Shown here one piece after another: positions 22,108 to 36,218 of a stretch of 64,000 nucleotides of DNA; the first letter of the stretch is position 1; each line of letters begins with the position of its first letter. Source of the DNA: Ostreococcus lucimarinus (lineage: Eukaryota). The stretch is taken from the NCBI GenBank assembly GCA_000092065.1, contig CP000592.1; one strand, written 5' to 3'. A program made the position numbers and the translations under genes. A model generated the notes under the pieces. It was not told where the DNA came from. It made no database searches and saw only the letters and a program-made list of their open reading frames with translations.

Positions 22108-23756
<1,649 letters not shown>

Positions 23757-24465: not shown

Positions 24466-25383
24466 CTACTCTTCCCTCATGCGATTGAGCATGCCACTGT
24501 CGCACAGTTGCGCCTCGCACGTGGCGAGCACGTCTTCGCCGAGCGGCGCCGACGGATCCGTCAGCCTCGCCGTGGTCCAGATTCGCAGCCCGTGCGATTG
24601 CACTTCTTTAATTTGCACCTGGATTTTGACGGTGTGATGAAGGGGAAGCGGTTTCTTGATCTTGACGTTCATTTCGATGGTGACGCAGCAGGGTGCTCGC
24701 CAACATTTGACCAGCTCGGCTGTCGCTTCGTCAAGAATCGTTTCGATGCAGCCTCCGTGGGCGAGATTATACGTCTGAATGCCGATCGCACCCGTATCAC
24801 CCACGCGCGCAACACCGACGAGCTCTGGATACTCGCTCGATCCCGTCCTCGCGCGCTCTCGGTAAAAATATCTCAAATCAAGACCTCTTTTCGCCGCGTC
24901 GTCGCCGACGGCCCACGATTCGCAAGTCACGAATACCCCTCGCCCGAGCCCAGGAGTCGCCTTTTGAAACGCTCGAAGCGAATTATCGCGACTCAACTCC
25001 ATCAACAACGCATCCCGCATCGGAAACAATCCGTGCTTTCGGAACGGGATCCCCGTCTTGAAGACGTGTCTTCGATAATCCGCCGCAGCGTCCTCGTGCT
25101 TATTCAGCATCGCCCGCTCCTTCGCGTCCCCCAGCGCGCTCGCTCGCCCATCGTTCACCTCGCGCCCACCGCCCGCTTGTTCGCATCGTCTCTCCCGCAC
25201 CCCCACCGGCACGTCGCGCCCACCGCTCTCGTAATACGCTCTGATTTCTTCCTCCCCGCACGCGCGCAACTCCTCGTCCTCCAGTTCCCGCGCCTCCGCG
25301 TGCGCCTCCGCGAGCACCACGGACAGGTTCAGCATTCGATGATAATTCATCCCGTCGTCCGCCGTCGCCGTCACCGTCGCCAT
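24466..25383 (-). CDS. Hotdog-fold thioesterase-domain protein (PaaI/4HBT/ACOT13-like C-terminal domain)
   Basis: C-terminal region: GGCIETILDEATAELVKCW..VTIEMNVKIKKPL..VKIQVQIKEV. ATG at 25381-25383. Confidence 0.6.
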   Translation of the reverse strand: MATVTATADDGMNYHRMLNLSVVLAEAHAEARELEDEELRACGEEEIRAYYESGGRDVPVGVRERRCEQAGGGREVNDGRASALGDAKERAMLNKHEDAAADYRRHVFKTGIPFRKHGLFPMRDALLMELSRDNSLRAFQKATPGLGRGVFVTCESWAVGDDAAKRGLDLRYFYRERARTGSSEYPELVGVARVGDTGAIGIQTYNLAHGGCIETILDEATAELVKCWRAPCCVTIEMNVKIKKPLPLHHTVKIQVQIKEVQSHGLRIWTTARLTDPSAPLGEDVLATCEAQLCDSGMLNRMREE

Positions 25384-25880
25384 CGCGCCGCGACGTGCCG
25401 CGTCGGCGAAAACTCAAATTCCAAAATTCCATAAACGCTCGAAAAACGCTCGCCGCGATCGCGCACCGACGGGTGCCCGGAACCGACCGCAGACGACGAC
25501 GCGCGACGACGACGACGCGATCGACGACGCGACGACGCGGCGCGGCGCGACGCGCGAACGACCCGACCGACGCGCGCGTCGAACGACGCGACGAGGGACG
25601 ACGCGCGCGCGATGACGGCGACGTCGGCGCTCGCGGTGCGTCGGTGCGGTGTTTCTCGGAACGCGCGACGGCGTCGAGGGCGACGCGCGAGAGCGACGCG
25701 CGAGAGCGACGCGCGCGCGCGCGATCGGACGACGCGATCGGGACGCGCGGCACGGCCGCGATGCGCGCGCGAGGCGCGAAGAGAAGACTGACGACGCGCG
25801 CGTCGGGGATCGATTCGTTTGTATAGGGCGCGGTCGAGACGCGCGCGCGCGGTCGAGGCGACGATTCGTTGTTGAAGGTT

Positions 25881-28641
25881 ATGCGCGCGGCGAGCGAAAA
25901 GGCGAAGCGAGAGTTCATGAGCAGTGATCGAGGCGTGGTGTCCGTGTGCTCGTGTTTGTTGAAGGTGCGTTCGGGGAAGGAAACTCGGATTGCGTCGGGT
26001 TGCGTCGGGCCGCGTCGACGCGTCGACGATTGAGATCGGCGATTGAACGAGACTGACTGACTCGCTCGTTTTCGATGCTCAGGAGCTCGAGGGCACGAGC
26101 GTGGATTGGTCCGTGGACGTCATCGGCGCGATGACGAATTTAATGGTGCAGTTCTCAGACTTAGATTGCGTGGACGTCGATCGCGTGCGAGATAAGTTGA
26201 TCGATGCGTTTGAACGCTTGGTCGATTACGCGCAGACGGCGGCGGAGAGCAATTTCTCTTCCATGTCCAAGGATATGCGCGATGTTTATGTGGATATCGT
26301 GTGGATTATTACTGAGTTGGTGAATGGTGCGGATGCGAAAGAAAAAGCGGATTGGGAGCGATTCGTCAACACCGCTACTAACGCGATTCTCATCGAAAAT
26401 TTGCCCCCTCTGATGCGACGGGAAACGCTTCTCTGTTTGAAATCGGTCACGCAAGGATGTGTGGACACGTCGACCGCACTTAAAGATGCGATTTATCCGA
26501 ACGCTAACGTCAAAAGAAGTAGACGCGGTGACTCGAACTCCAAGCTCGGTTTACTTAGGCAAGTGTTTTTGAAGTGCGGCGATTTCAACGCCCAAAAGCA
26601 CATCGCCGAGATTTTGTTCCGTCTCGTCAAGGCGAACCTTCTCGAACAAGACGTCGCGTCTACCATCTTCAAGCACGTGACGTCACAGTTTAAGGATTTA
26701 TTCAGGATTCAAGATACCGCGCAGATGTTCAAATCGCTCAAGACTTTGGTTCGACACTTCAACGCCGCGCAAGGCAGCGCTGCCTCGGTCAAGTCTTTTG
26801 AAGCCAAAAATTTACGTCTAGTTGACTTGCAAGTGCACGATAAATGGGTCAATTTCGGTCAAGAAATGCTCACCGTGCACGTGGTCATGGAAGACGATGG
26901 TAGTATTGAGCCGGTGGATATCTTGTACTCGAACATTCGCGCGTTTTCTATGCCCAAGAAAAACGTCGCGCACATCGGCATTCGCGAGAAACCTCTTGGC
27001 TTGGCGGCGGAAGATCCTTTTGATATCGAAGACGACGAGTGGATTCAAATCGAATTCCATGATCAAAATGTTCCGGCTGTGATTGAACAGCTGTTTCGAA
27101 TCGGTAAGCAAAACGACATCGTCGAAATGTACATCACGAATGCAAACTTGGTGCCGAGCAAAAAAATGTCCGCGGGCATCTTAGACGTCGAATTGAACTC
27201 TGAGTCTGAATCTTTGGAACATGATGCGCCCGCGGTGAAACCGACGCCCGTCGTGCTCAAATCGAAGTCGAAGCCGAAGCCGAAGAAAGCGCCTCGGAAG
27301 ACTCGTGAGAAAACTGCCGCTCTAGTGGTCTCCGAAACAGAATCCGATTCTGAGGAAGTGCCGAAAGCCGTCAAGCCGACGCAAGCGTCTCGACAGCTTC
27401 CGAAGCGTAAAGCGAAGCAAGATGGTATCAAAAAGTTAAACCAGCAGCTCAATGATATTTTAGAGACTTCCGATCTCGCCGAAGAGCCTGAACCGTCGCT
27501 GTCTCCTCCACCGGCAAAGCGCACCTCGCCTCCGCAACGACTTCAACCTGTTCGTCAGCTTGAGTATTCTCCGCGACGCGAAATGGAGGACGATGAGGAC
27601 AACGACAACGACGACGACGACGCGCAAGAAGATGAATGGACTCATGAAGATATTCCTGCTCTCGTGAAGATGATCAAGGCGAAAGGTACGACGAAGAAGC
27701 AGCGCGAGGAATACCAGCGCGTCGTCGATCGATTGAAGCAAAGCGAATCTCGCGATGTTTCTTTGGGGAAGTCATTGTTTAAAACGCCCGCGCCGTCGCT
27801 TCAAGCGCCGAAGACCGGACCACGACCTGGCATACTCAAGTCCCCCGACGCTAAGCGTTTGAAAACCGGTCCTTATGATAGCGTCGTGGATTGGCGCAAG
27901 CGTCTCGCCCCAGTTCAAACGACAAAGAAGCCCGCTCGAACGACTACGACGGCGACTACGACTACGACGGACTTGAACTTTGACGACGATGAAGACGATG
28001 AAGACACTGGTGGTGGTACTTTAACCCCTCTGTCAAACTTTCTCAACGCATCTGACGATGTCTCGCCGTTACTGAGCGACGAAAAAGCGAAGAAGAAGTC
28101 TAAAACTCGCCGCTCGGCGCCCGCGGACGTCGCCGCCATGGGCGACGACATGGTTGGATTCCAGCAAATGATGCAATCTCTCGCCGAACGCAATCGACGA
28201 ATCGCGCGCGAGCGCATCGAGTCACTCGTGAACGAGTTCAGAGTCGAGTCCGAGGCCGCGAGTCGTAAGTTCATCTCTCAAGCCGAACAAGATTACGAAA
28301 CGTTCGCGCGCGCCGCCGGGCGCCAAGCCGCCGAGCGTTCGCGAGAGTCCAAAACCATCGCCTCTCGCGTCGAAGCCCTCACTCGCGAGTACAAATCCGC
28401 GCTCCGCGTCGCCTACGAAGATTTTACCGCCAACAAGCGCGCCATCGTCGCCGACACCGCCCGCATCACCGACGATCTCGCGCAAATCGACGCCAAGCAC
28501 GCCGCCGCCGCCAAGCGGCTCCTCGAAAAGCTCGACGCCAAGCGCCGCAAGGTCGCCACCGACGTCGACACCGCCGCTCGCGCCGCCCACACCAACGACG
28601 GCGTTAAATCCATGCTCTTAGAGCTCGCTCGCAAGATGTGA
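25881..28641 (+). CDS. Hypothetical protein with an N-terminal helical domain, a PH-like beta domain, a long K/E/S/T-rich disordered middle and a C-terminal coiled coil; a candidate SYCP2/Red1/ASY3-like axial-element protein; proposed exons 25881..25964 and 26083..28641
   Basis: The long ORF begins at a GTG (26101). Upstream there is an ATG exon (25881) with donor GTGCGT at 25965, CTGACTGAC at 26053-26061 and acceptor CAG at 26080-26082, all phase 0. The domain order and the coiled coil at the very C-terminus fit SYCP2/ASY3. Homology could not be confirmed by eye. Confidence 0.65.
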
Positions 28642-28699: not shown

Positions 28700-28736
28700 A
28701 AAAAAAAAAAGACCAAGATGGTCTTTGTCGTCGCAC
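28700..28736. terminator. A10 tract followed by a 7-bp inverted repeat (aaagacc aagat ggtcttt) between the upstream gene's stop and the ABC1K ATG
   Basis: Seen directly. It could mark the 3' end of the upstream transcript. The ATG at 28718 lies inside the hairpin. Confidence 0.25.
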
Positions 28737-31479
28737 CCTTTTTCTCGACGTCACCACGTTTCCGAGTCCCCCGAACGACCGTTCGCGACCCATCGGCTGA
28801 TCTTTTTCGCTCCAGCGTGGCGGCGACCGGGACGAATGCGCGTGCCGTCGTCGCGTCGTCGCGCGCGCGCGTCGCGTCACATCGACGCGTGCGCGCACAC
28901 CGACGACCGGTAGACATGATCGCACACACGGCGACGTCGCGCGTCGTGCGCGCGCGCGCCGCGACGCGCGGACGCGGGACGACGACGACGACGACGCGGA
29001 GAATTATCCAAACGCGCGGCGCCGCGCGCGAAGACGCGCGCTGGGCGACGCCGCGATGCGTCCCGGCGCCCGGCGCGCGAGCGATGGTGAACGTCGGAGG
29101 ACGACACGCGCGCGCCGCGGGGGGCGGACGGATGGATCGACGACGCAACGCGGCGACGAGGACGACGAGCGCGAGCAAGGGCGAAGGGGACAACGCGGCG
29201 AGCACGGAGGAGATTGAAAAGTGCCTCGAGGATGAGGAGTGCAAGAGCGAGACGCTGATGACGTTGGAAAACGCGCTCGCGAGCGTGGACAGCGACGTCG
29301 TGGGTGACGCGGATGGTGGAGTTGTGGTGAAGAAGGAGACGACGCCGAAGGCGTTCGTCAACGCGAAAACCATCGACGAGTCGGATTTCGAGGACGTGGT
29401 GGTTTCTGAACCGCCGTTGAACATTGAACGATTGAAATCAGTAGGAACGATCGCTCGATCGTTCGAGATTTGGAGCTTTGTCGTGGCGTTCGTGTTCAGA
29501 CGGGTTTTCATAGGGGTGAAGTGGTCGTACAAGGGCGGATACACCGAGGAGAAGCGCATCGCGAGGCTCGAGCGTTTGGCGAGCTGGTTGCGCAAGGGGC
29601 TGCTTCGACTTGGACCGACGTTCATCAAGGTTGGTCAGCAGTTCTCTACTCGTGTTGATGTGTTGAGCCCGCAATTCATTCGAGAGCTCGAAAAGTTGCA
29701 AGATCGCGTCCCGCCGTTTCCGACCAAGCTCGCCAAGGAAATCCTCGACGAAGAGCTCGGTGGTCCGGTTGAATCGTTCTTCGACAATTTCGAAGACACT
29801 CCGCTCGCGGCGGCGTCCTTGGGTCAGGTCCACCGCGCGCAAATGAAGGCGACGGGCGAGCAAGTCATCATCAAGGTGCAACGCCCGGGCTTGAAGGAGA
29901 TTTTCGACATTGACCTTAAAAACTTGCGCGTCATCGCCAAGTGGTTGCAAAAGGTCGATCCGAAGAACGACGGCGCCAAGCGCGATTGGGTGGCGATTTT
30001 CGATGAAACGGCGCGCGTGCTGTACGATGAAGTCGACTACACCAACGAGGCGAAGAACGCGGAAGAGTTCAAGAAGCAGTTCACCGGCGACGACTGGATA
30101 AAGGTTCCTCGCATTTACTGGGAATTCACCAAGCGTCGTACGTTGTGCATGGAGTACGCGCCGGCGACGAAGATCAACGATGTGGAGGCCATTAAGGCGA
30201 TGGGAATCGATCCCGATCGCATGGCTCGCCTCGCCGTCGAGGCTTACTTGCAGCAAGTGTTGCGATTTGGTTTCTTCCACGCGGATCCGCACCCTGGTAA
30301 CGTCGCCGTCGACAAGGGTGATCCGGAAGGCAAGGGGCGATTAGTTGTGTATGATTACGGTATGATGGGTCGCATTCCCAGCCAAACTCGTGATGGATTG
30401 TTAGATTTGTTCTATGCGACGTACGAAGGTCAAAGCGACAGCGCCGTGAAGGCGTTGATGAAGATGGGCGTGCTCGTGGACACGGGCGCCGATCTCACCG
30501 CGGTGAAGCGTACGGCGGATTTCTTTTTGACGCAATTCGATGCTCGCATCAACGCGCAAAAGAAGGCTCGCGAAACGAACAAGGAAGAGTTTGAGGCTGA
30601 GTTCAAGGCGCCGCGCACCAAGGAGGAGAAACAGCAAGTTCGCAAGCGCATTTTGTCCAACATCGGCGAAGATTTGCTCGTCGTGAGCAAGGATCAACCG
30701 TTCCGATTCCCGGCTGAATTTACATTTGTGGTGGTAAGTACTCGCTCGCTCGCTCGCTCATCGACAGTGGCACTTTGCAGATCGTTTGCGATGATGAGAC
30801 AACGCTATCTAGATACACTTTCTCGATGAATGTTTCTGGGTTTCGGCTCGGCGCAGTGTTGATTACTTTACAGCAATGTGGTTTCTCTGAGCATACGCAC
30901 TCGGCTCGTCGACCAAAGCGTCATCTCGCGAACGCACTGAAACTGACCTATAAAATTTCTTCCCTCTCACAGCGAGCCTTCTCCGTGTTAGACGGAATCG
31001 GTAAGACGCTCAACAAGAAGTTTGACATTTCCGAAATCGCGGCGCCGTACGCGCGCAACTTGCTCATTGAAGCGAACCCGAACTCGTTGCCGCCGCAAGT
31101 CGTGACGGCTCAGCGCGACTGGTTGCGTCGCGCCGATGCTCAAACGAAGGCCATCGTCAACTTGTTCAAGGGTCCGGATGCCATTTATGACATTGCGGAC
31201 ACCATGCGTCGCATCGAAACGGGCAAGTTGAAGATTCGCGTCCGCGCTCTCGAAGCCGAACGCGCGCTTGATCGCATGGCCATCATGCAAGGCGTTACGA
31301 TTCAAGCTCTTCTCGCGGCCTGCGCGACGAACATTGGTGTTGTGTTGTACGTGAGTAGCTTGACATTGTACGCGCAATGCGCGTTTGGCGCCGCCGGTTT
31401 GCTCGCGTTCAAGGCGCTCACGGGCCAACTCAAGGTTGCCAAGCTCTTGAAGAAGGAGAACTCCATCCTCGGAGCTTAG
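28718..31479 (+). CDS. ABC1/UbiB-family atypical kinase (plastid ABC1K-like); exons 28718..30733 and 30973..31479
   Basis: LRLGPTFIKVGQQFSTRVDVLSPQFI..AAASLGQVHRA..FFHADPHPGNVAV. The intron has donor GTAAGT at 30734, CTGAC at 30943 and acceptor CAG at 30970-30972. The junction FTFVV|RAFSVLDGIG restores the conserved ABC1K motif. The start may be at 28718 or at the ATG at 28916. Confidence 0.88.
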
Positions 31480-31624: not shown

Positions 31625-32899
31625 CTAAAAATCGCAGTCAGTGCGGAACGAGTGATTCTCTTCTCCACCCTGCATGACGCCTGCTTTCTGGTACTGATCC
31701 ACGCGATGTTCGAAAAAGTTTGCCTTGCCTTGGAGCGAAATGAGCTCCATCCAATCAAACGGATTGACCGCGTTGTAAAGCTTCGACACGCCCAACTGAA
31801 GGAGAAGTCGGTCGGCGACAAACTCGATGTACGTGCTCATCATGTTTGCATTCATACCGACGAGGGAACAGCTCAGAGCGTCGCACACGAACTCTTTCTC
31901 TATTGTCACCGCATCTCCAACGAGTTGGTGTAGAACCTTCTCCGATAATGGATTCTCCAGCATGCTATACAACAGACACGCAAAGTCGCAGTGTAATCCT
32001 TCGTCGCGGCTTATGAGCTCGTTGGAAAATGTCAAACCACGCATCAATCCTCGCTTTTTCAACCAGAAGATGGCGCAGAAAGATCCGCTGAAGAAAATTC
32101 CCTCCACGCACGCGAAACCGACGAGACGCTCGGCGAAACTCGCGTCGCTACCGATCCATTTGAGCGCCCAATCCGCCTTCTTTGCCACGGTGGGCACCGT
32201 GTGAATCGCCCGAAACAAGTCGGATTTCTTCTTTGGATCCTTAATGTACGTGTCCAAGAGCAACGAATACATCTCGCTGTGAATGTTTTCGATCGCGAGC
32301 TGAAAGCCATAAAACGATCGAGCCTCCGGGAGCTGCACATCCGTCATGAACCGAGAGCATAAATTCTCCAACACGATGCCGTCGCTCGCGGCGAAAAACG
32401 CCAACACGTGCGATATAAAGTGTTGCTCGTTATCGTTCAATGTGATCCAATCTCTGTAATCGTACGTCAAGTCGACCTCCTCCGCCGTCCAAAAACTCGC
32501 CTCCGCCTTCTTATACATCTCCCAAACCTTCGCGTGCTTGATCGGAAACAAACAAAACCGATCGGGATTGTCTCGCAACAGCGGCTCCGCCGCGTCTCGC
32601 TCCCGCGACGCCGTCGCCCGCGCCCTCGCCGCCTCCTGATCCGCCCTCGCCGCCCACGGCGACATCGCCGCTATGCGTTCCGCCACCTCCTCCAGCTCCA
32701 AGTGCGTGCTCGACGCGCTCAGCGATTCGCTGCTCGACGTCCTTCGCGCGCGTCTCGCCGCCGCCTCTTCGCCGTCGCCCCCCCCTTTCGCCGCGTCCTC
32801 GCCCACCGCCGCGTCTCCCGTCCCGTCCGCGCGCGCCTTCCCGCGCAACCACGTCCTCGGGTGCAAGTCCTCCACCGAATCCTTCACGTTCGTCATCAT
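31625..32899 (-). CDS. RNR2: Ribonucleotide reductase small subunit (R2/RRM2)
   Basis: [18 protein letters not shown], the di-iron ligands ([32 protein letters not shown]) and a C-terminal F. ATG-ATG at 32894-32899. An alternative start is the Met of MSPWAARAD, about 80 aa downstream. Confidence 0.9.
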
Positions 32900-33351
32900 C
32901 GCAAGCCTCGCGCGCGTTCGCCCCGTGCCCGCGCGTTCGATCGTCGCGCGCGAATCCCGTCGGAATTCCCTCCCGTCGCGCCGCCTCGCCGCGCGATCGC
33001 GACGCCGGTCGCGCGGATTCGCGTCGCGATCGCGTCGTCGTCGCGCGCTCTCGCGTCGTCGCGTCGCGTCGTCGCGTCGCGTCGTCGGCCGTCGAGGAAT
33101 CGCGACGACGACGGACGCGACGACGCGAATCGTCGACGCCGCGCGCGATCGCCGTCATAAATGGGTCTTTCGTGTGCCGAAATACGTACATCGATCCCTT
33201 GTCGAATCGTGACTCGAGAGAAGTCCCCCGGGCCGTCTCATGGTCCGTGTGCGTCTGACCGCACGCGAGTGAGACCGCGCGCGATCGCGAACGCGCGATC
33301 GCCGCGATCGACGCGCGCGACGTCTCGACGCGCCTCGATCGCGGCGTCGAC

Positions 33352-33818
33352 ATGGCGAAGGTCCCCGCGCGACTGCGAAGCGTGACGTACAGCCTGTCGC
33401 CCATGCGCACGGGCGTCATGCACGGCCTGTTCAAGGATTGGGCGTCGGGCATGGCGACGCGCGTCAAGGAGAACGCGGTCGACGCGGGCGTGTTCTGCGC
33501 GCTGCCGCTCGGCGCGACGGTGTGGTGCGTCGAAGCGAGACGACGACGACGCGAAACGGTGACGCGACGACGACGCGCGACGACGACGCGACAAAACGGG
33601 ACGGGACGGATGAGGGATCGCGGGGCAGAGGCGTAGGGTCGCCGGAGCGCGACGACGGGGGGGGCGAGCGAGAAGACACGACCGCGAACGATCGGTCAGG
33701 GCGCGTCGAGGGGGTGGTGCGCGCGAACGCGTGACTGACGAACGCGCGTTCGATCGCGATCGAACGCAGGTACGCGTTGAATTACAAGGAAAATGAAAAG
33801 TTGGAGCACCGATATTAA
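33352..33818 (+). CDS. QCR8: Cytochrome bc1 complex subunit 8 (QCR8/UQCRQ, ubiquinone-binding protein QP-C), 73 aa; exons 33352..33524 and 33770..33818
   Basis: Exon 1 MAKVPARLRSVTYSLSPMRTGVMHGLFKDWASGMATRVKENAV..PLGATV matches plant QCR8 (MGKQPVRLKAVVYALSPFQQKVMPGLWKDL..VSENW). Donor GTGCGT at 33525, CTGAC at 33735, acceptor CAG at 33767-33769. Exon 2 encodes WYALNYKENEKLEHRY*, matching the plant C-terminus ..YVQHFLEKEKLEHRY. It is absent from the ORF track as a single ORF. Confidence 0.8.
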
Positions 33819-34040
33819 ATTCGAGCGGCGCGCGCGAGCGAAGGGGTCGAGCGAACGACCGACGTCGCTCGCGCGGTAGAGCGCGTCTTAATTTAGAATT
33901 GTAACGTTTAGAAGGACGCGCGCGCGCGCGGTGGTCGCGACGTCGCGCGCGTGATCGAACCGCGGCGCGAGGGACCCTCGAGCGCGCGGCGCGCGCGGCG
34001 CGCGCCGAGCCGCACTCGCCGGCGCGCGTCGACGTCCCGG

Positions 34041-36218
34041 ATGTCGGACTCGGTCGCGCCCGGTAAGGATGACGACGACGCCGATGGGTTCTACGAGGAA
34101 GCGCCGCGCGAAGGCGGCGTCGGCGACGTCGCGCGCGAGGAAAACGGCGAGCGAAACCGCGCGTGGCCCGGTGTTGACGTGCAACAGCTCTCGCAAGCCT
34201 TCGCGCGCGTCGCGGGGTCGTTCGGGCGAGACACGATGGGCGTGCGTAGCCCGCAGTTCAGCGAGGAAGCGCACGAGGCGGCGTACGCGGCGGCGCGGGC
34301 GGATTATCAGGACGAACGGTTCGAGGCTGACCTGGCGCGCGCGATAAGCGCGTCGCTTGGGGACGAACAGCGCGACGCGCGGACGTCCACCGGCAGCGCG
34401 AACGAGAAAGGCGGGGATGAAGAGGCAGCCTTATTGCTCGAGGCGCGGCGACAGAGCTTGCGAGAGCGTTTCAGTGGGAGCGCGATGGCGGAACGGTTTT
34501 GGTCGACGTACTCGCTCAACTTTAGCGAGCGATTGGCCGACGGCTTTTTCTACCCGCATCCGAGCGATTGGGGGACGTTGAACGCCAAGGGGGGGAGATT
34601 ACCGAAATTCGAGTCGTTGCGCGCGGTGGAGGATTACCAGGGAGATCGCGAGGTGGTCATCGTTGATCGATGCGGCGACGTCTCGTTGGAAGAGTTTATG
34701 GCGTATTGTTTTGACGAAATTGGCCACATCGAGGATAGGTGTGACGCATCGCCTGAGCTCGCACGCCTCGTCGCCGAGCGCATGGGGGGCGCCGCGGAAA
34801 GCGACGACGCGCTGCGAGAGACCTGGGAAAGCGAGCGAGCGCGTTTGATCGAGGAACACGGTAGCTTGATTTTTCCAGTGGGATCAATGAAAGTGGGTTT
34901 GCAACGACATCGCGCCATTTTGTTCAAAGCCGTGGCAGACTTCCTTGAAATTCCTTCGCAGCTGTTGCGTGGGAAATTTTATTGCGGAGACGAGGAGGCG
35001 GTGATGATCATTGTGATGTGCGGTGGTATGAAGCGAATGCTTAATTTGATGCATGAGCCGGGTCGTATGCAGACTCCGTACAACTCAGATTCGACGCCGC
35101 CATCGAACGCTGGATCGACGTACGCGCCTACCGACAGCGGTCGAGAGTCACCAGACGTATTGGTGACACCATCTCGAGCGGAGGATACTAGAGAAGGCCA
35201 ACGTTTCGGCGTGATGTCTCCGGAAGACTTGCAAACGCCAGAGCAACCGAAGACTCCTTTGCGCCTCCAAGTCGCGGTCGATCTCACCATTGATCCGTCA
35301 CAAATTTTACTCGGAGAGCGCATCGGGATAGGTTCTTTCGGCGAAGTTCACCGAGCACTCTGGCGCGGTACAGAGGTTGCGGTGAAGAGATTTCTCGACC
35401 AGGATATTTCAAAAAATCTCCTCGACGACGTGACGTTTGAGGTAGACATCATGCGACGTCTGCGACATCCGAACGTCATCTTACTCATGGGCGCGGTCAC
35501 AGTACCTGGAAACCTATCCATCGTTACCGAGTTTTTGCACCGTGGATCACTTTTCAAACTTTTACATCGCGAACAAAGTCCAGCGCTGAAAGCGGCATTG
35601 GACAACCGTCGCAGGATGAGGATGGTCATGGATGTCATTCGCGGCATGCACTACTTGCACTCGTTTGAGCCGATGATAGTGCATCGCGACTTGAAGTCTC
35701 CAAACCTTCTCGTCGATAAGAGTTTTGTCGTGAAAGTGTGTGACTTTGGTTTATCGAGAATGAAGCGTAACACGTATCTCAGCTCAAAGACAAATGCGGG
35801 CACGCCGGAGTGGATGGCGCCCGAGGTGCTACGAAATGATGACAGCGACGAAAAGGCGGACATCTATTCGTTTGGGGTAATTTTATGGGAACTTGCCACG
35901 ATGCAAGAGCCTTGGTCAGGCTTGAATCCGATGCAAGTTGTCGGAGCGGTCGGTTTTGCGGGTAAGCAGCTCGAGATTCCAGCGGATATGGACGAAGTCA
36001 TCGCGAAGATGTGCCGCGATTGTTGGAAGACCAATCCTCGTGAGCGCCCGAGCTTTGAAGATTTGGCGACAGAAATGCGATCTGTACCCAAAGCTCCTAG
36101 TTTAGCGCAGAGCGATTCGAACGGAGCTATTAAGGAGCGAAGTCGACTCTCCGTGCCTCCGGTGCCGGTGTCCGAGCCACGGGGCGACTGGGAAGACGAG
36201 CGGTCGCGTGGTTGGTAA
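34041..36218 (+). CDS. Raf-like MAPKKK of the EDR1/CTR1 family (N-terminal EDR1 domain plus C-terminal Ser/Thr kinase)
   Basis: EDR1-type N-domain (FWSTYSLNFSERLADGFFYPH..LPKFESLRAVED..VVIVDRCGD). Kinase domain GIGSFGEVHRALWRGTEVAVKRF..HRDLKSPNLLVD..DFGLSR..GTPEWMAPE. ATG at 34041; the ORF-track start at 33951 is a GTG. Confidence 0.9.
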   Translation: MSDSVAPGKDDDDADGFYEEAPREGGVGDVAREENGERNRAWPGVDVQQLSQAFARVAGSFGRDTMGVRSPQFSEEAHEAAYAAARADYQDERFEADLARAISASLGDEQRDARTSTGSANEKGGDEEAALLLEARRQSLRERFSGSAMAERFWSTYSLNFSERLADGFFYPHPSDWGTLNAKGGRLPKFESLRAVEDYQGDREVVIVDRCGDVSLEEFMAYCFDEIGHIEDRCDASPELARLVAERMGGAAESDDALRETWESERARLIEEHGSLIFPVGSMKVGLQRHRAILFKAVADFLEIPSQLLRGKFYCGDEEAVMIIVMCGGMKRMLNLMHEPGRMQTPYNSDSTPPSNAGSTYAPTDSGRESPDVLVTPSRAEDTREGQRFGVMSPEDLQTPEQPKTPLRLQVAVDLTIDPSQILLGERIGIGSFGEVHRALWRGTEVAVKRFLDQDISKNLLDDVTFEVDIMRRLRHPNVILLMGAVTVPGNLSIVTEFLHRGSLFKLLHREQSPALKAALDNRRRMRMVMDVIRGMHYLHSFEPMIVHRDLKSPNLLVDKSFVVKVCDFGLSRMKRNTYLSSKTNAGTPEWMAPEVLRNDDSDEKADIYSFGVILWELATMQEPWSGLNPMQVVGAVGFAGKQLEIPADMDEVIAKMCRDCWKTNPRERPSFEDLATEMRSVPKAPSLAQSDSNGAIKERSRLSVPPVPVSEPRGDWEDERSRGW

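What the first reader, a model, noticed from the sequence alone, without database searches (positions are those of the whole stretch)
25881..28641. Candidate meiotic axial-element (SYCP2/Red1/ASY3-like) protein with a spliced 5' exon
The architecture is an N-terminal helical domain of about 170 aa, then a PH/Spt16M-like beta domain, then a K/E/S/T-rich region of about 350 aa with acidic runs and phosphosite-like motifs, then a coiled coil at the extreme C-terminus. That is the arrangement of SYCP2, Red1 and ASY3, whose primary sequences diverge too fast for by-eye homology. The gene is also noticeably less GC-rich than its neighbours. If the assignment is correct, it would be evidence for a meiosis and synaptonemal-complex toolkit in a picoalga in which sex has not been observed. 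The spliced 5' exon (25881-25964; donor GTGCGT, CTGACTGAC, acceptor CAG at 26080-26082; phase 0) is needed to supply an ATG start.
Basis: inference. Interest (0 to 1): 0.55.

Follow-up and report, generated by a model that had tools for sequence, protein, structure and literature searches.

The report
Ostreococcus meiotic chromosome-axis core protein
This gene of the tiny marine green alga Ostreococcus lucimarinus, listed in databases only as an "uncharacterized protein", belongs to the SYCP2/ASY3/Red1 family that builds the meiotic chromosome axis, adding a structural piece to the known meiosis gene set of an alga never seen to have sex.

Summary
A two-exon gene (25881-25964 and 26083-28641, + strand) encodes an 880-aa protein. 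That protein is letter-for-letter RefSeq XP_001420614.1, "predicted protein" of Ostreococcus lucimarinus CCE9901.

- **N-terminal domain, sequence.** A family profile hits the 5IWZ sequence at E 4.7e-23.
- **Link to ASY3.** The same N-domain profile finds lycophyte and liverwort proteins that carry Pfam "ASY3-like" at their C-terminus.
- **Rest of the protein.** About 316 residues are predicted disordered, followed by one 151-residue amphipathic helix at the C-terminus. That helix aligns weakly but end to end with plant ASY3 coiled coils.
- **5' exon and intron.** Both are confirmed by comparison with four related lineages.

Not shown: binding to HORMAD proteins or cohesin, filament formation, and expression during meiosis.

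Verdict: a new member of a known family. The gene model is already annotated, and meiosis genes were already known in Ostreococcus. Interest is moderate.

The parts
25881..25964 (+). Exon 1 (28 codons, MRAASEKAKREFMSSDRGVVSVCSCLLK), starting at the first in-frame ATG
   Evidence: The spliced product equals XP_001420614.1. Homologous peptides lie upstream of the orthologues in L002, L003 and L005, and are fused in frame in L001.
25965..26082 (+). Intron, 118 nt, phase 0, GTGCGT ... CTGACTGAC ... CAG
   Evidence: The position and the GT/CTGAC/CAG signals are the same in three related lineages; the intron is absent in a fourth.
26083..28641 (+). Exon 2 (852 codons plus TGA stop)
   Evidence: Orthologues of 811-893 aa at 46-64% identity align along the whole length.
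26113..26781 (+). ARM-like helical repeat domain (residues 39-261), including the family motif FLKCGDFNAQKHIAEILFRL
26791..27129 (+). PH-like / Spt16M-like beta domain (residues 265-377): seven strands plus a capping helix
   Evidence: AF2 secondary structure. The profile alignment to 5IWZ chain residues 96-365 covers this domain.
27139..27192 (+). Candidate HORMAD-binding closure motif (residues 381-398, NANLVPSKKMSAGILDVE). Inferred, not tested.
   Evidence: P386, K388, K389, S391 and G393 are invariant in all 15 sequences. The region is predicted disordered. It lies directly after the folded domain, as the closure motifs of Red1 and SYCP2 do (PMC6349405). Similar K-x-S-x-G-[ILV] cores occur after the PH domain of the plant and Bathycoccus relatives.
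27193..28140 (+). Predicted disordered linker (residues 399-714), rich in K/D/P/T/S/E, with acidic runs and conserved short motifs
   Evidence: pLDDT is below 50 over most of it. Composition and motifs; conserved columns.
27409..27471 (+). Conserved basic patch KRKAK followed by a short amphipathic helix (residues 471-491). Candidate nuclear-import signal and/or cohesin-interacting motif. Inferred.
   Evidence: AF2 helix at pLDDT 60-72. P468, R470, K471, A472, K473, Q474, G476, K479 and Q483 are invariant. L480, L484, I487 and L488 have the i, i+4, i+7, i+8 spacing of the A. thaliana ASY3 REC8-binding residues L196, L200, I203 and L204 (bioRxiv 10.64898/2026.01.19.700424).
27643..27768 (+). 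Conserved helix-turn-helix island in the linker (residues 549-590, core WTxDDIPALMKMIKAKGTSKKQRE). Function unknown.
   Evidence: AF2 helices at pLDDT about 90; invariant columns W547-Q568. Not found outside the close orthologues.
28141..28638 (+). C-terminal long amphipathic helix / coiled-coil domain (residues 715-880)
   Evidence: One 151-residue helix at pLDDT 91-97. Hydrophobic period 3.62, the same as in plant ASY3 C-termini. Collinear hhalign match to plant ASY3 C-termini at P 8.8e-4, reached by 0 of 90 shuffles.

Best explanation
The gene encodes the Ostreococcus lucimarinus orthologue of the meiotic 'axis core' protein family: SYCP2 in animals, Red1/Rec10 in fungi, ASY3 in plants.

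Proposed mechanism, by analogy with characterised members:
1. The C-terminal 165-residue amphipathic helix assembles into helical-bundle tetramers, which join end to end into filaments along the chromosome.
2. The conserved short motif directly after the folded N-terminal domain (residues 381-398) is captured by the HORMA domain of the alga's Hop1/ASY1 orthologue.
3. One of the conserved helical motifs in the disordered linker may dock the protein onto Rec8 cohesin.
4. The ARM-PH module is a further protein-interaction surface.

Shown here: the gene model, family membership of the N-terminal domain by both sequence profile and fold, and the overall architecture.

Inferred: every binding step, oligomerisation, and meiosis-specific use.
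For: - **Sequence.** Profile A4 hits the SYCP2 chain 5iwz_A at E 4.7e-23; the next hit is 0.038.
- **Link to ASY3.** A profile built only from the close orthologues, searched against 1.84 billion proteins, finds Diphasiastrum KAJ7558258.1 (E 8e-12) and a Calypogeia protein (E 4e-7). Both carry PF20435 ASY3-like above the cut-off (47.8 and 46.3 bits against 25.7). A Selaginella relative is named 'Meiosis-specific pro...' by UniRef.
- **Architecture.** ARM-PH domain, then a conserved motif, then a disordered linker, then a C-terminal long helix. This equals the family definition in PMC6349405 and bioRxiv 10.64898/2026.01.19.700424.
- **C-terminal helix.** It aligns end to end with plant ASY3 C-termini (P 8.8e-4; 0/30 column shuffles and 0/60 heptad-block shuffles reach it). 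It also shares their 3.62-residue hydrophobic period.
- **A real, conserved gene.** It is present at the same syntenic position in at least five lineages.
- **Expected partners.** Hop1, PCH2, Dmc1 and Spo11 are reported in the sister species O. tauri (PMC2488364; bioRxiv 10.64898/2026.08.19.745701).
Against: - No Pfam model (SYCP2_ARLD, SYCP2_SLD, ASY3-like) hits the protein itself at E<=1.
- The profile of close orthologues alone finds nothing in the PDB. The sequence link to SYCP2 is therefore transitive, passing through distant relatives.
- Similarity of the C-terminal domain to ASY3 is weak (hhalign probability 23%). Its best PDB sequence match is apolipoprotein A-IV.
- No expression, localisation or interaction data are available here.
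- Meiosis has never been observed in this alga.
- No SYCP3/ASY4-like partner was found.
- The family is known to have been put to a non-meiotic use once, as KKT17/18 in kinetoplastids (PMC8131943).
Confidence: 0.8

Rival explanations
1. The protein is a true SYCP2-family member that has been put to a non-meiotic or additional use. One possibility is a role at mitotic chromosomes or kinetochores, as happened with KKT17/KKT18 in kinetoplastids.
For: There is a precedent for repurposing of this family (PMC8131943). Sex has never been observed in this alga. The gene is kept intact and syntenic in every lineage sampled, and is common in metagenomes (clusters of 189 and 220 members). That shows sustained selection, though not what for.
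Against: Other meiosis-specific genes (Hop1, Dmc1, Spo11, PCH2) are retained in Ostreococcus (PMC2488364; bioRxiv 10.64898/2026.08.19.745701), so the ordinary partners are present. The kinetoplastid repurposing came with gene duplication and loss of canonical kinetochores; only one copy per lineage is seen here. Nothing in the sequence points to a kinetochore role.
Confidence: 0.1
2. The protein is an unrelated ARM-plus-PH scaffold (for example a cohesin regulator or trafficking adaptor) that only resembles SYCP2 by convergence of common folds.
For: ARM repeats and PH domains are both very common. Sequence identity to 5IWZ in the structural alignments is only 11-12%. Pfam SYCP2 models do not hit the protein.
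Confidence: 0.03
3. The protein is a decaying relic of a lost sexual cycle: a family member that is no longer functional.
For: GC content and GC3 are at the low end for this window, as expected for a weakly expressed gene. Sex has not been observed.
Against: The reading frame is intact at 811-893 aa in all lineages, at 46-64% identity. There are 150+ invariant columns, including short motifs inside the disordered linker. Splice signals are conserved. This pattern indicates purifying selection.
Confidence: 0.04

Closest known systems
ASY3 (ASYNAPTIC3 / rice PAIR3), the plant axis core protein, in the form kept by non-seed plants
   Same: Same lineage (green plants). Both have an N-terminal ARM-PH domain with the KCGDFxxQxxIAEILYRL motif, a long disordered linker, and a C-terminal amphipathic helix of about 165 residues that ends at the C-terminus with a G-[VLF]-K-x-[MLI]-L motif and has a 3.62-residue period.
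   Different: Seed-plant ASY3, the only form studied experimentally, has lost the ARM-PH domain (PMC8131943). The Pfam ASY3-like model does not score this protein. The linker motifs are not shared. No ASY4-like partner was found here.
SYCP2 (mammalian synaptonemal complex protein 2), N-terminal ARLD+SLD domain, PDB 5IWZ
   Different: SYCP2 is about 1500 aa, works with SYCP3, and shows no Rec8-binding motif (bioRxiv 10.64898/2026.01.19.700424). Identity is only 11-12%. The Pfam SYCP2_ARLD and SYCP2_SLD models do not hit this protein.
Red1 (budding yeast) / Rec10 (fission yeast)
   Same: Similar size (about 830 aa for Red1, from my own knowledge). Same order of parts: ARM-PH, closure motif, disordered linker with a cohesin-interacting helix, C-terminal coiled coil (PMC6349405; bioRxiv 10.64898/2026.01.19.700424). 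Red1 also has no separate small coiled-coil partner, which may be the case here.
   Different: No detectable sequence similarity was obtained here to any fungal member. The Red1 coiled coil is shorter (about 90 residues).
KKT17/KKT18 (kinetoplastid kinetochore proteins)
   Same: Members of the same SYCP2-type family, with ARM-PH plus a C-terminal coiled coil whose best profile match is an apolipoprotein (PMC8131943). The same apolipoprotein match was obtained here.
   Different: They are duplicated and act at kinetochores in a lineage that lacks canonical kinetochores. Nothing suggests this for Ostreococcus.

Membership tests
SYCP2 / Red1 / ASY3 axis core proteins | Folded N-terminal domain made of tightly packed ARM-like and PH (Spt16M-like) subdomains | tested here: met
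SYCP2 / Red1 / ASY3 axis core proteins | HORMAD-binding closure motif, placed directly after the N-terminal domain in Red1 and SYCP2 | not testable with these tools
   A candidate exists at residues 381-398: invariant P-x-KK-x-S-x-G, predicted disordered, in the right position.
SYCP2 / Red1 / ASY3 axis core proteins | Long disordered central region | tested here: met
   Residues 399-714 are mostly below pLDDT 50 and 57% K/E/S/T/D/P.
SYCP2 / Red1 / ASY3 axis core proteins | C-terminal coiled-coil domain at the very end of the protein | tested here: met
   A single helix 715-865 plus 868-879 at pLDDT 91-97, with a strong amphipathic period of 3.62 (8 of 500 shuffles reach the peak). The period is not the canonical 3.5, but plant ASY3 shows the same value.
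SYCP2 / Red1 / ASY3 axis core proteins | The coiled coil forms tetramers that assemble into filaments, alone or with a SYCP3/ASY4-type partner | not testable with these tools
   Only monomer prediction is available. No short paralogue was found, but the sensitivity of those searches is limited.
SYCP2 / Red1 / ASY3 axis core proteins | Meiosis-specific expression and localisation to chromosome axes | not testable with these tools
   No expression data can be reached for this gene. Meiosis has not been observed in the organism.
Pfam PF20435 ASY3-like (C-terminal part) | Score at or above the gathering threshold (25.7 bits) | tested here: not met
   No hit at E<=10 for the window protein or any close orthologue. 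Only the three plant members of A5 match. Profile-profile comparison gives a collinear match over 159 columns with P 8.8e-4 but probability only 23%.
Pfam SYCP2_ARLD / SYCP2_SLD | A hit by the Pfam models of the SYCP2 N-terminal subdomains (their presence in the local Pfam copy is assumed from my own knowledge and was not checked) | tested here: not met
   No Pfam hit at E<=1 apart from a chance DUF1048 match. As far as I know these models are built mainly from animal sequences. Homology is nevertheless shown by the family profile.
Plant/fungal axis core proteins with a cohesin-interacting motif (CIM) | [quoted passage not shown] | tested here: inconclusive
   Two conserved helical islands exist (471-491 and 549-590). 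The first has the L-x3-L-x2-I-L spacing of the A. thaliana ASY3 CIM, but positions 487/488 vary among orthologues, and the motif overlaps a KRKAK basic patch.

The most novel reading that the evidence does not exclude
In Mamiellophyceae the axis core protein works without any SYCP3/ASY4-type partner. It would form homo-oligomeric filaments, as Red1 does, through a non-heptad (about 3.6-residue) helical bundle, while keeping the ancestral ARM-PH domain that seed plants lost. That would make Ostreococcus the smallest and simplest green-lineage model of the ancestral chromosome axis. A bolder variant, also not excluded, is that the protein additionally organises chromosomes outside meiosis in this alga.
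Probability: 0.15. Interest if true: 0.65.

Novelty: new member of a known kind. Interest (0 to 1): 0.42.

Why it matters
- **A name for an unnamed protein.** It gives a function to a conserved "uncharacterized protein" found throughout Ostreococcus and Bathycoccus and common in ocean metagenomes.
- **A structural component for the meiosis gene set.** It adds the chromosome-axis core to the recombination genes already known in these picoalgae. This strengthens the case that they undergo a conventional meiosis with an organised axis.
- **Evolution of the family in the green lineage.** It shows that the green lineage ancestrally had the full ARM-PH form of ASY3. The form survives in prasinophyte algae, liverworts and lycophytes and was lost in seed plants.
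- **A practical marker.** The gene could be used to look for the elusive sexual stage, in culture and in metatranscriptomes.

Tried and rejected
- **Single-sequence searches.** Pfam and PDB searches with the protein alone found nothing meaningful.
- **Close-orthologue profile.** The N-domain profile of the close orthologues found nothing in the PDB even at E<=10. Distant relatives had to be added first.
- **Word-indexed homologue search.** It returned only 14 close orthologues and only 4 plant relatives.
- **AlphaFold-database fold search.** The library was not available.
- **C-terminal profile against the PDB.** It gave apolipoprotein A-IV and haemagglutinin HA2, which are generic long-helix matches. 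No SYCP3 was found.
- **Search for a short SYCP3/ASY4-like paralogue.** The C-terminal profile found only fragments of the same gene. P0159 is the C-terminal piece of an orthologue that is split in contig L007.
- **Linker motifs in distant relatives.** HMMs of the five conserved linker motifs found only FKTPAxxxxxPKT in Bathycoccus. The others are clade-specific.
- **Published closure-motif sequences.** A literature search for ASY3 closure-motif sequences, to compare with the candidate here, found none in the text. My recollection that seed-plant ASY3/PAIR3 carry an 'RK[IV]S[IV]GV' core is from memory only and was not used as evidence.
- **Rfam.** Nothing was found in the window.
- **Low GC as a sign of foreign origin.** Rejected. 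The value is shared by other long ORFs in the window and comes mainly from amino-acid composition (GC2 0.395) and a slightly low GC3.
Full report
**1. What is in the sequence**

The + strand carries an ORF from 26101 to 28641. Its frame stays open back to a stop at 26044-26046. CTGACTGAC ... CAG, phase 0) and gives 880 aa.

An exact-sequence look-up shows that these 880 aa are identical to XP_001420614.1 / ABO98907.1 / UniRef100_A4S5I5, 'predicted protein' or 'Uncharacterized protein' of Ostreococcus lucimarinus CCE9901. The gene upstream is XP_001420778.1 of the same strain. The window is therefore O. lucimarinus. The gene model was already in RefSeq; its function was not.

**2. The 5' exon and intron**

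Fourteen orthologues of 811-893 aa at 46-64% identity were found, most of them called by prokaryote-style gene finders on metagenome contigs.

- In one clade (P0008-P0010, P0012; locus L001) the reading frame runs without interruption through LRAASDKAKREFAKSAEGVGKLCACVKY|ELERSF. This aligns without gaps to exon 1 | exon 2 of the window.
- In three other lineages (L002, L003, L005) a peptide 57-75% identical to exon 1 lies upstream. In each it is followed by GT[AG][CT]GT ... CTGAC ... CAG and then GAG-[CT]T[CG]-[AG]AG (E-L-E or E-L-K).

So the intron is old, sits at a fixed position, and was lost once.

Residues 29-44, which lie between the acceptor site and the internal ATG at 26131, are conserved in all orthologues. 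No ATG lies between the stop at 26044 and 26131. The upstream exon is therefore genuinely needed.

One detail: in L003 and L005 the protein starts 16-21 codons further upstream (METRA[RK]G...). The window keeps that peptide in frame (GAVETRARG...), but with GTG at 25833-25835 and a stop at 25824-25826. ATG 25881 is therefore the first usable start.

**3. Architecture**

An AlphaFold2 model of residues 29-404 was built with 10 sequences (mean pLDDT 73.7, pTM 0.75). It shows twelve helices spanning residues 39-261, then seven strands and a capping helix at 265-377, then a disordered tail.

A second model, of residues 369-880, is disordered (pLDDT below 50) except for:
- a helix at 471-491 (pLDDT 60-72)
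- a helix pair at 549-560 and 566-590 (pLDDT about 90)
- one uninterrupted helix at 715-865 (pLDDT 91-97), plus a short one at 868-879

The linker (399-714) is 57% K/E/S/T/D/P. It has acidic runs at 530-541 and 662-669, eight SP/TP sites and three basic clusters.

The 'coiled coil' is also not a canonical heptad one: its hydrophobic period is 3.62-3.64, whereas a canonical heptad coiled coil would give 3.5.

**4. What the N-terminal domain is**

*By fold.*
- Foldseek against the PDB gives one significant match, 5IWZ, the N-terminal domain of mouse SYCP2: E 5.5e-6, probability 1.00, TM 0.56/0.57 over 375 columns. The next match has E 0.034 and TM 0.18.

*By sequence.*
- A profile of the close orthologues alone, run against 1.84 billion representative proteins, finds 34 proteins at E<=1e-3.
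- They include Bathycoccus prasinos CAL6423308.1, Diphasiastrum complanatum KAJ7558258.1, a Calypogeia fissa protein and a heterolobosean protein.
- The lycophyte and liverwort proteins carry Pfam PF20435 'Meiosis-specific protein ASY3-like' at their C-termini, well above the gathering score.
- A Selaginella relative is named 'Meiosis-specific pro...' by UniRef.
- A profile that adds these distant relatives (A4) hits the SYCP2 chain of 5IWZ at E 4.7e-23, over profile positions 38-295 and chain residues 96-365. The next PDB sequence scores 0.038.
- The shared signature is GD[FY]xxQxxIxE[IA]LxR[LM] near the end of the ARM part, and NxxxGxxxxVxSF ... W[VI]DFG at the start of the PH part.

The domain is therefore homologous to the SYCP2 ARLD-SLD module by fold and, through intermediates, by sequence.

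**5. The C-terminal domain**

A profile of the last ~170 residues of this family plus Bathycoccus was aligned to a profile of the last ~185 residues of the four plant ASY3 orthologues.

- The alignment covers 159 columns from end to end (P 8.8e-4, probability 23%).
- Reversing the plant alignment gives P 0.44. None of 30 column shuffles and none of 60 shuffles of 7-column blocks reaches the observed value; the best was 0.024.
- Both sets have their hydrophobic peak at 3.62 residues.
- Both end with G-[VLF]-K-x-[MLI]-L a few residues before the C-terminus.
- The Pfam ASY3-like model does not score the alga's sequence.
- The best PDB sequence match of the joint profile is apolipoprotein A-IV. 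Tromer et al. reported the same odd match for SYCP2/3-type coiled coils (PMC8131943).

I read this as probable but unproven homology of the C-terminal domains.

**6. Short motifs (inference only)**

- *Candidate closure motif.* Directly after the PH domain lies NLxPxKKxSxGILD[LV], with five invariant residues (381-398). It is predicted disordered. The HORMAD closure motifs of Red1 and SYCP2 sit at this position (PMC6349405). Plant and Bathycoccus relatives have K-x-S-x-G-[ILV]-like cores after their PH domains.
- *Candidate cohesin-interacting motif.* Helix 471-491 follows an invariant PKRKAKQ patch. Its L480/L484/I487/L488 have the spacing of the REC8-binding residues of A. thaliana ASY3 (bioRxiv 10.64898/2026.01.19.700424). 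However, two of the four positions vary among orthologues, and the patch could simply be a nuclear-import signal.
- *Unassigned island.* Helices 549-590 (WTxDDIPALMKMIKAKGTSKKQRE) are the best-conserved part of the linker and have no assigned role.

Apart from FKTPAxxxxxPKT, which is shared with Bathycoccus, these motifs are clade-specific.

**7. Context**

The order of genes is polyubiquitin, Skp1-like, thioesterase-domain gene (minus strand), this gene, ABC1 kinase, ribonucleotide reductase small subunit. Most of this order recurs in all the related loci examined: the thioesterase-size gene upstream and the ABC1 kinase downstream in every one, the other neighbours in some. Nothing in the neighbourhood is meiosis-related.

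The CDS GC (0.536) is the lowest in the window, but it is matched by two other long ORFs. It reflects a K/D/E/S-rich composition (GC2 0.395) and a somewhat low GC3 (0.63). That is compatible with weak expression but is not diagnostic.

**8. Comparison with what is known**

- The N-terminal domain, the linker and the position and helical nature of the C-terminal domain were tested here and met.
- Binding and assembly could not be tested.

Tromer et al. (PMC8131943) showed that the family is pan-eukaryotic and that seed plants lost the ARM-PH part of ASY3. The present protein, together with the lycophyte and liverwort relatives, fits that picture.

Full-text searches found no paper that mentions Ostreococcus together with ASY3 or SYCP2, and none that cites the accession numbers. 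Supplementary tables of PMC8131943 were not available, so an earlier listing there cannot be excluded.

Meiosis genes in Ostreococcus are long known: Spo11, Hop1, Hop2, Mnd1, Dmc1 and Msh5 (PMC2488364, citing Derelle 2006), and PCH2, DMC1 and SPO22, which are marked by H3K27me3 in vegetative O. tauri (bioRxiv 10.64898/2026.08.19.745701).

**9. Verdict**

The protein is the prasinophyte member of the SYCP2/ASY3/Red1 axis core family.

- Confidence in family membership: about 0.9.
- Confidence that it acts as a meiotic axis core in the way described: about 0.8.

It is a new member of a known kind. It is useful for annotation and as a marker for the undiscovered sexual stage, but not a surprise to specialists.

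Noticed in passing
window 25827-25880: The in-frame peptide GAVETRARGRGDDSLLKV upstream of the annotated start is homologous to the true N-termini (METRA[RK]G...) of orthologues in L003 and L005. The window has GTG at 25833-25835 where they have ATG, and a stop at 25824-25826. The start codon seems to have moved 16 codons downstream in O. lucimarinus; L002 also has V at that position.
   Followed up: partly
L001 2379-5048 (JGI 3300033183): In this lineage (orthologue about 50% identical, locus GC 0.54) the intron is absent and exon 1 and exon 2 are fused in frame. This is a clean example of precise intron loss.
   Followed up: partly
window 28141-28638 and plant ASY3 C-termini (P0021, P0036, P0126, P0127): The 'coiled coil' has a hydrophobic period of 3.62 residues rather than 3.5, both in this family and in plant ASY3. 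The joint profile's best PDB sequence hit is apolipoprotein A-IV. This suggests an 11/18-residue-type helical bundle rather than a canonical heptad coiled coil.
   Followed up: partly
window 27643-27768: Residues 547-590 (WTxDDIPALMKMIKAKGTSKKQREELQRVV) are a strongly conserved island inside the disordered linker, confidently predicted as helix-turn-helix (pLDDT about 90). No counterpart was found outside the close orthologues and no function is known.
   Followed up: partly
P0021, P0036, P0126, P0127: The precomputed Pfam list for the plant ASY3 orthologues includes PF26290.1. It did not appear in my own Pfam scan of two of these proteins, so it may be missing from the local copy. Its name and extent could not be checked; it may be a model of the ARM-PH part.
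   Followed up: no
window 22114-23756: A polyubiquitin gene with at least four full head-to-tail ubiquitin repeats (22737-23756). A further ubiquitin-like N-terminal fragment ([11 protein letters not shown]...QDKEG) lies in another frame at about 22260-22360, which suggests an intron-split first repeat.
   Followed up: no
window 28718-31479: The ABC1-kinase gene downstream appears to continue past the end of its long ORF (30829) in another frame (30775-31479), which suggests a 3' intron. The first ~150 codons of the ORF are Arg/Thr/Ala-rich and look like GC-rich 5' leader or transit peptide rather than conserved coding sequence.
   Followed up: no
window, whole (for example 25000-26000, 32500-34500): Intergenic and 5' regions are markedly more GC-rich (0.65-0.70, with CGACG-type repeats) than coding regions (0.53-0.60). 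As a result, long spurious ORFs appear on both strands across them.
   Followed up: no
L007 1643-3964 (ENA ERZ1283806 k141_914798): In this contig the orthologue is split into 506-aa and 234-aa gene calls. The cause is probably a frameshift or assembly error, not a short ASY4-like paralogue.
   Followed up: partly
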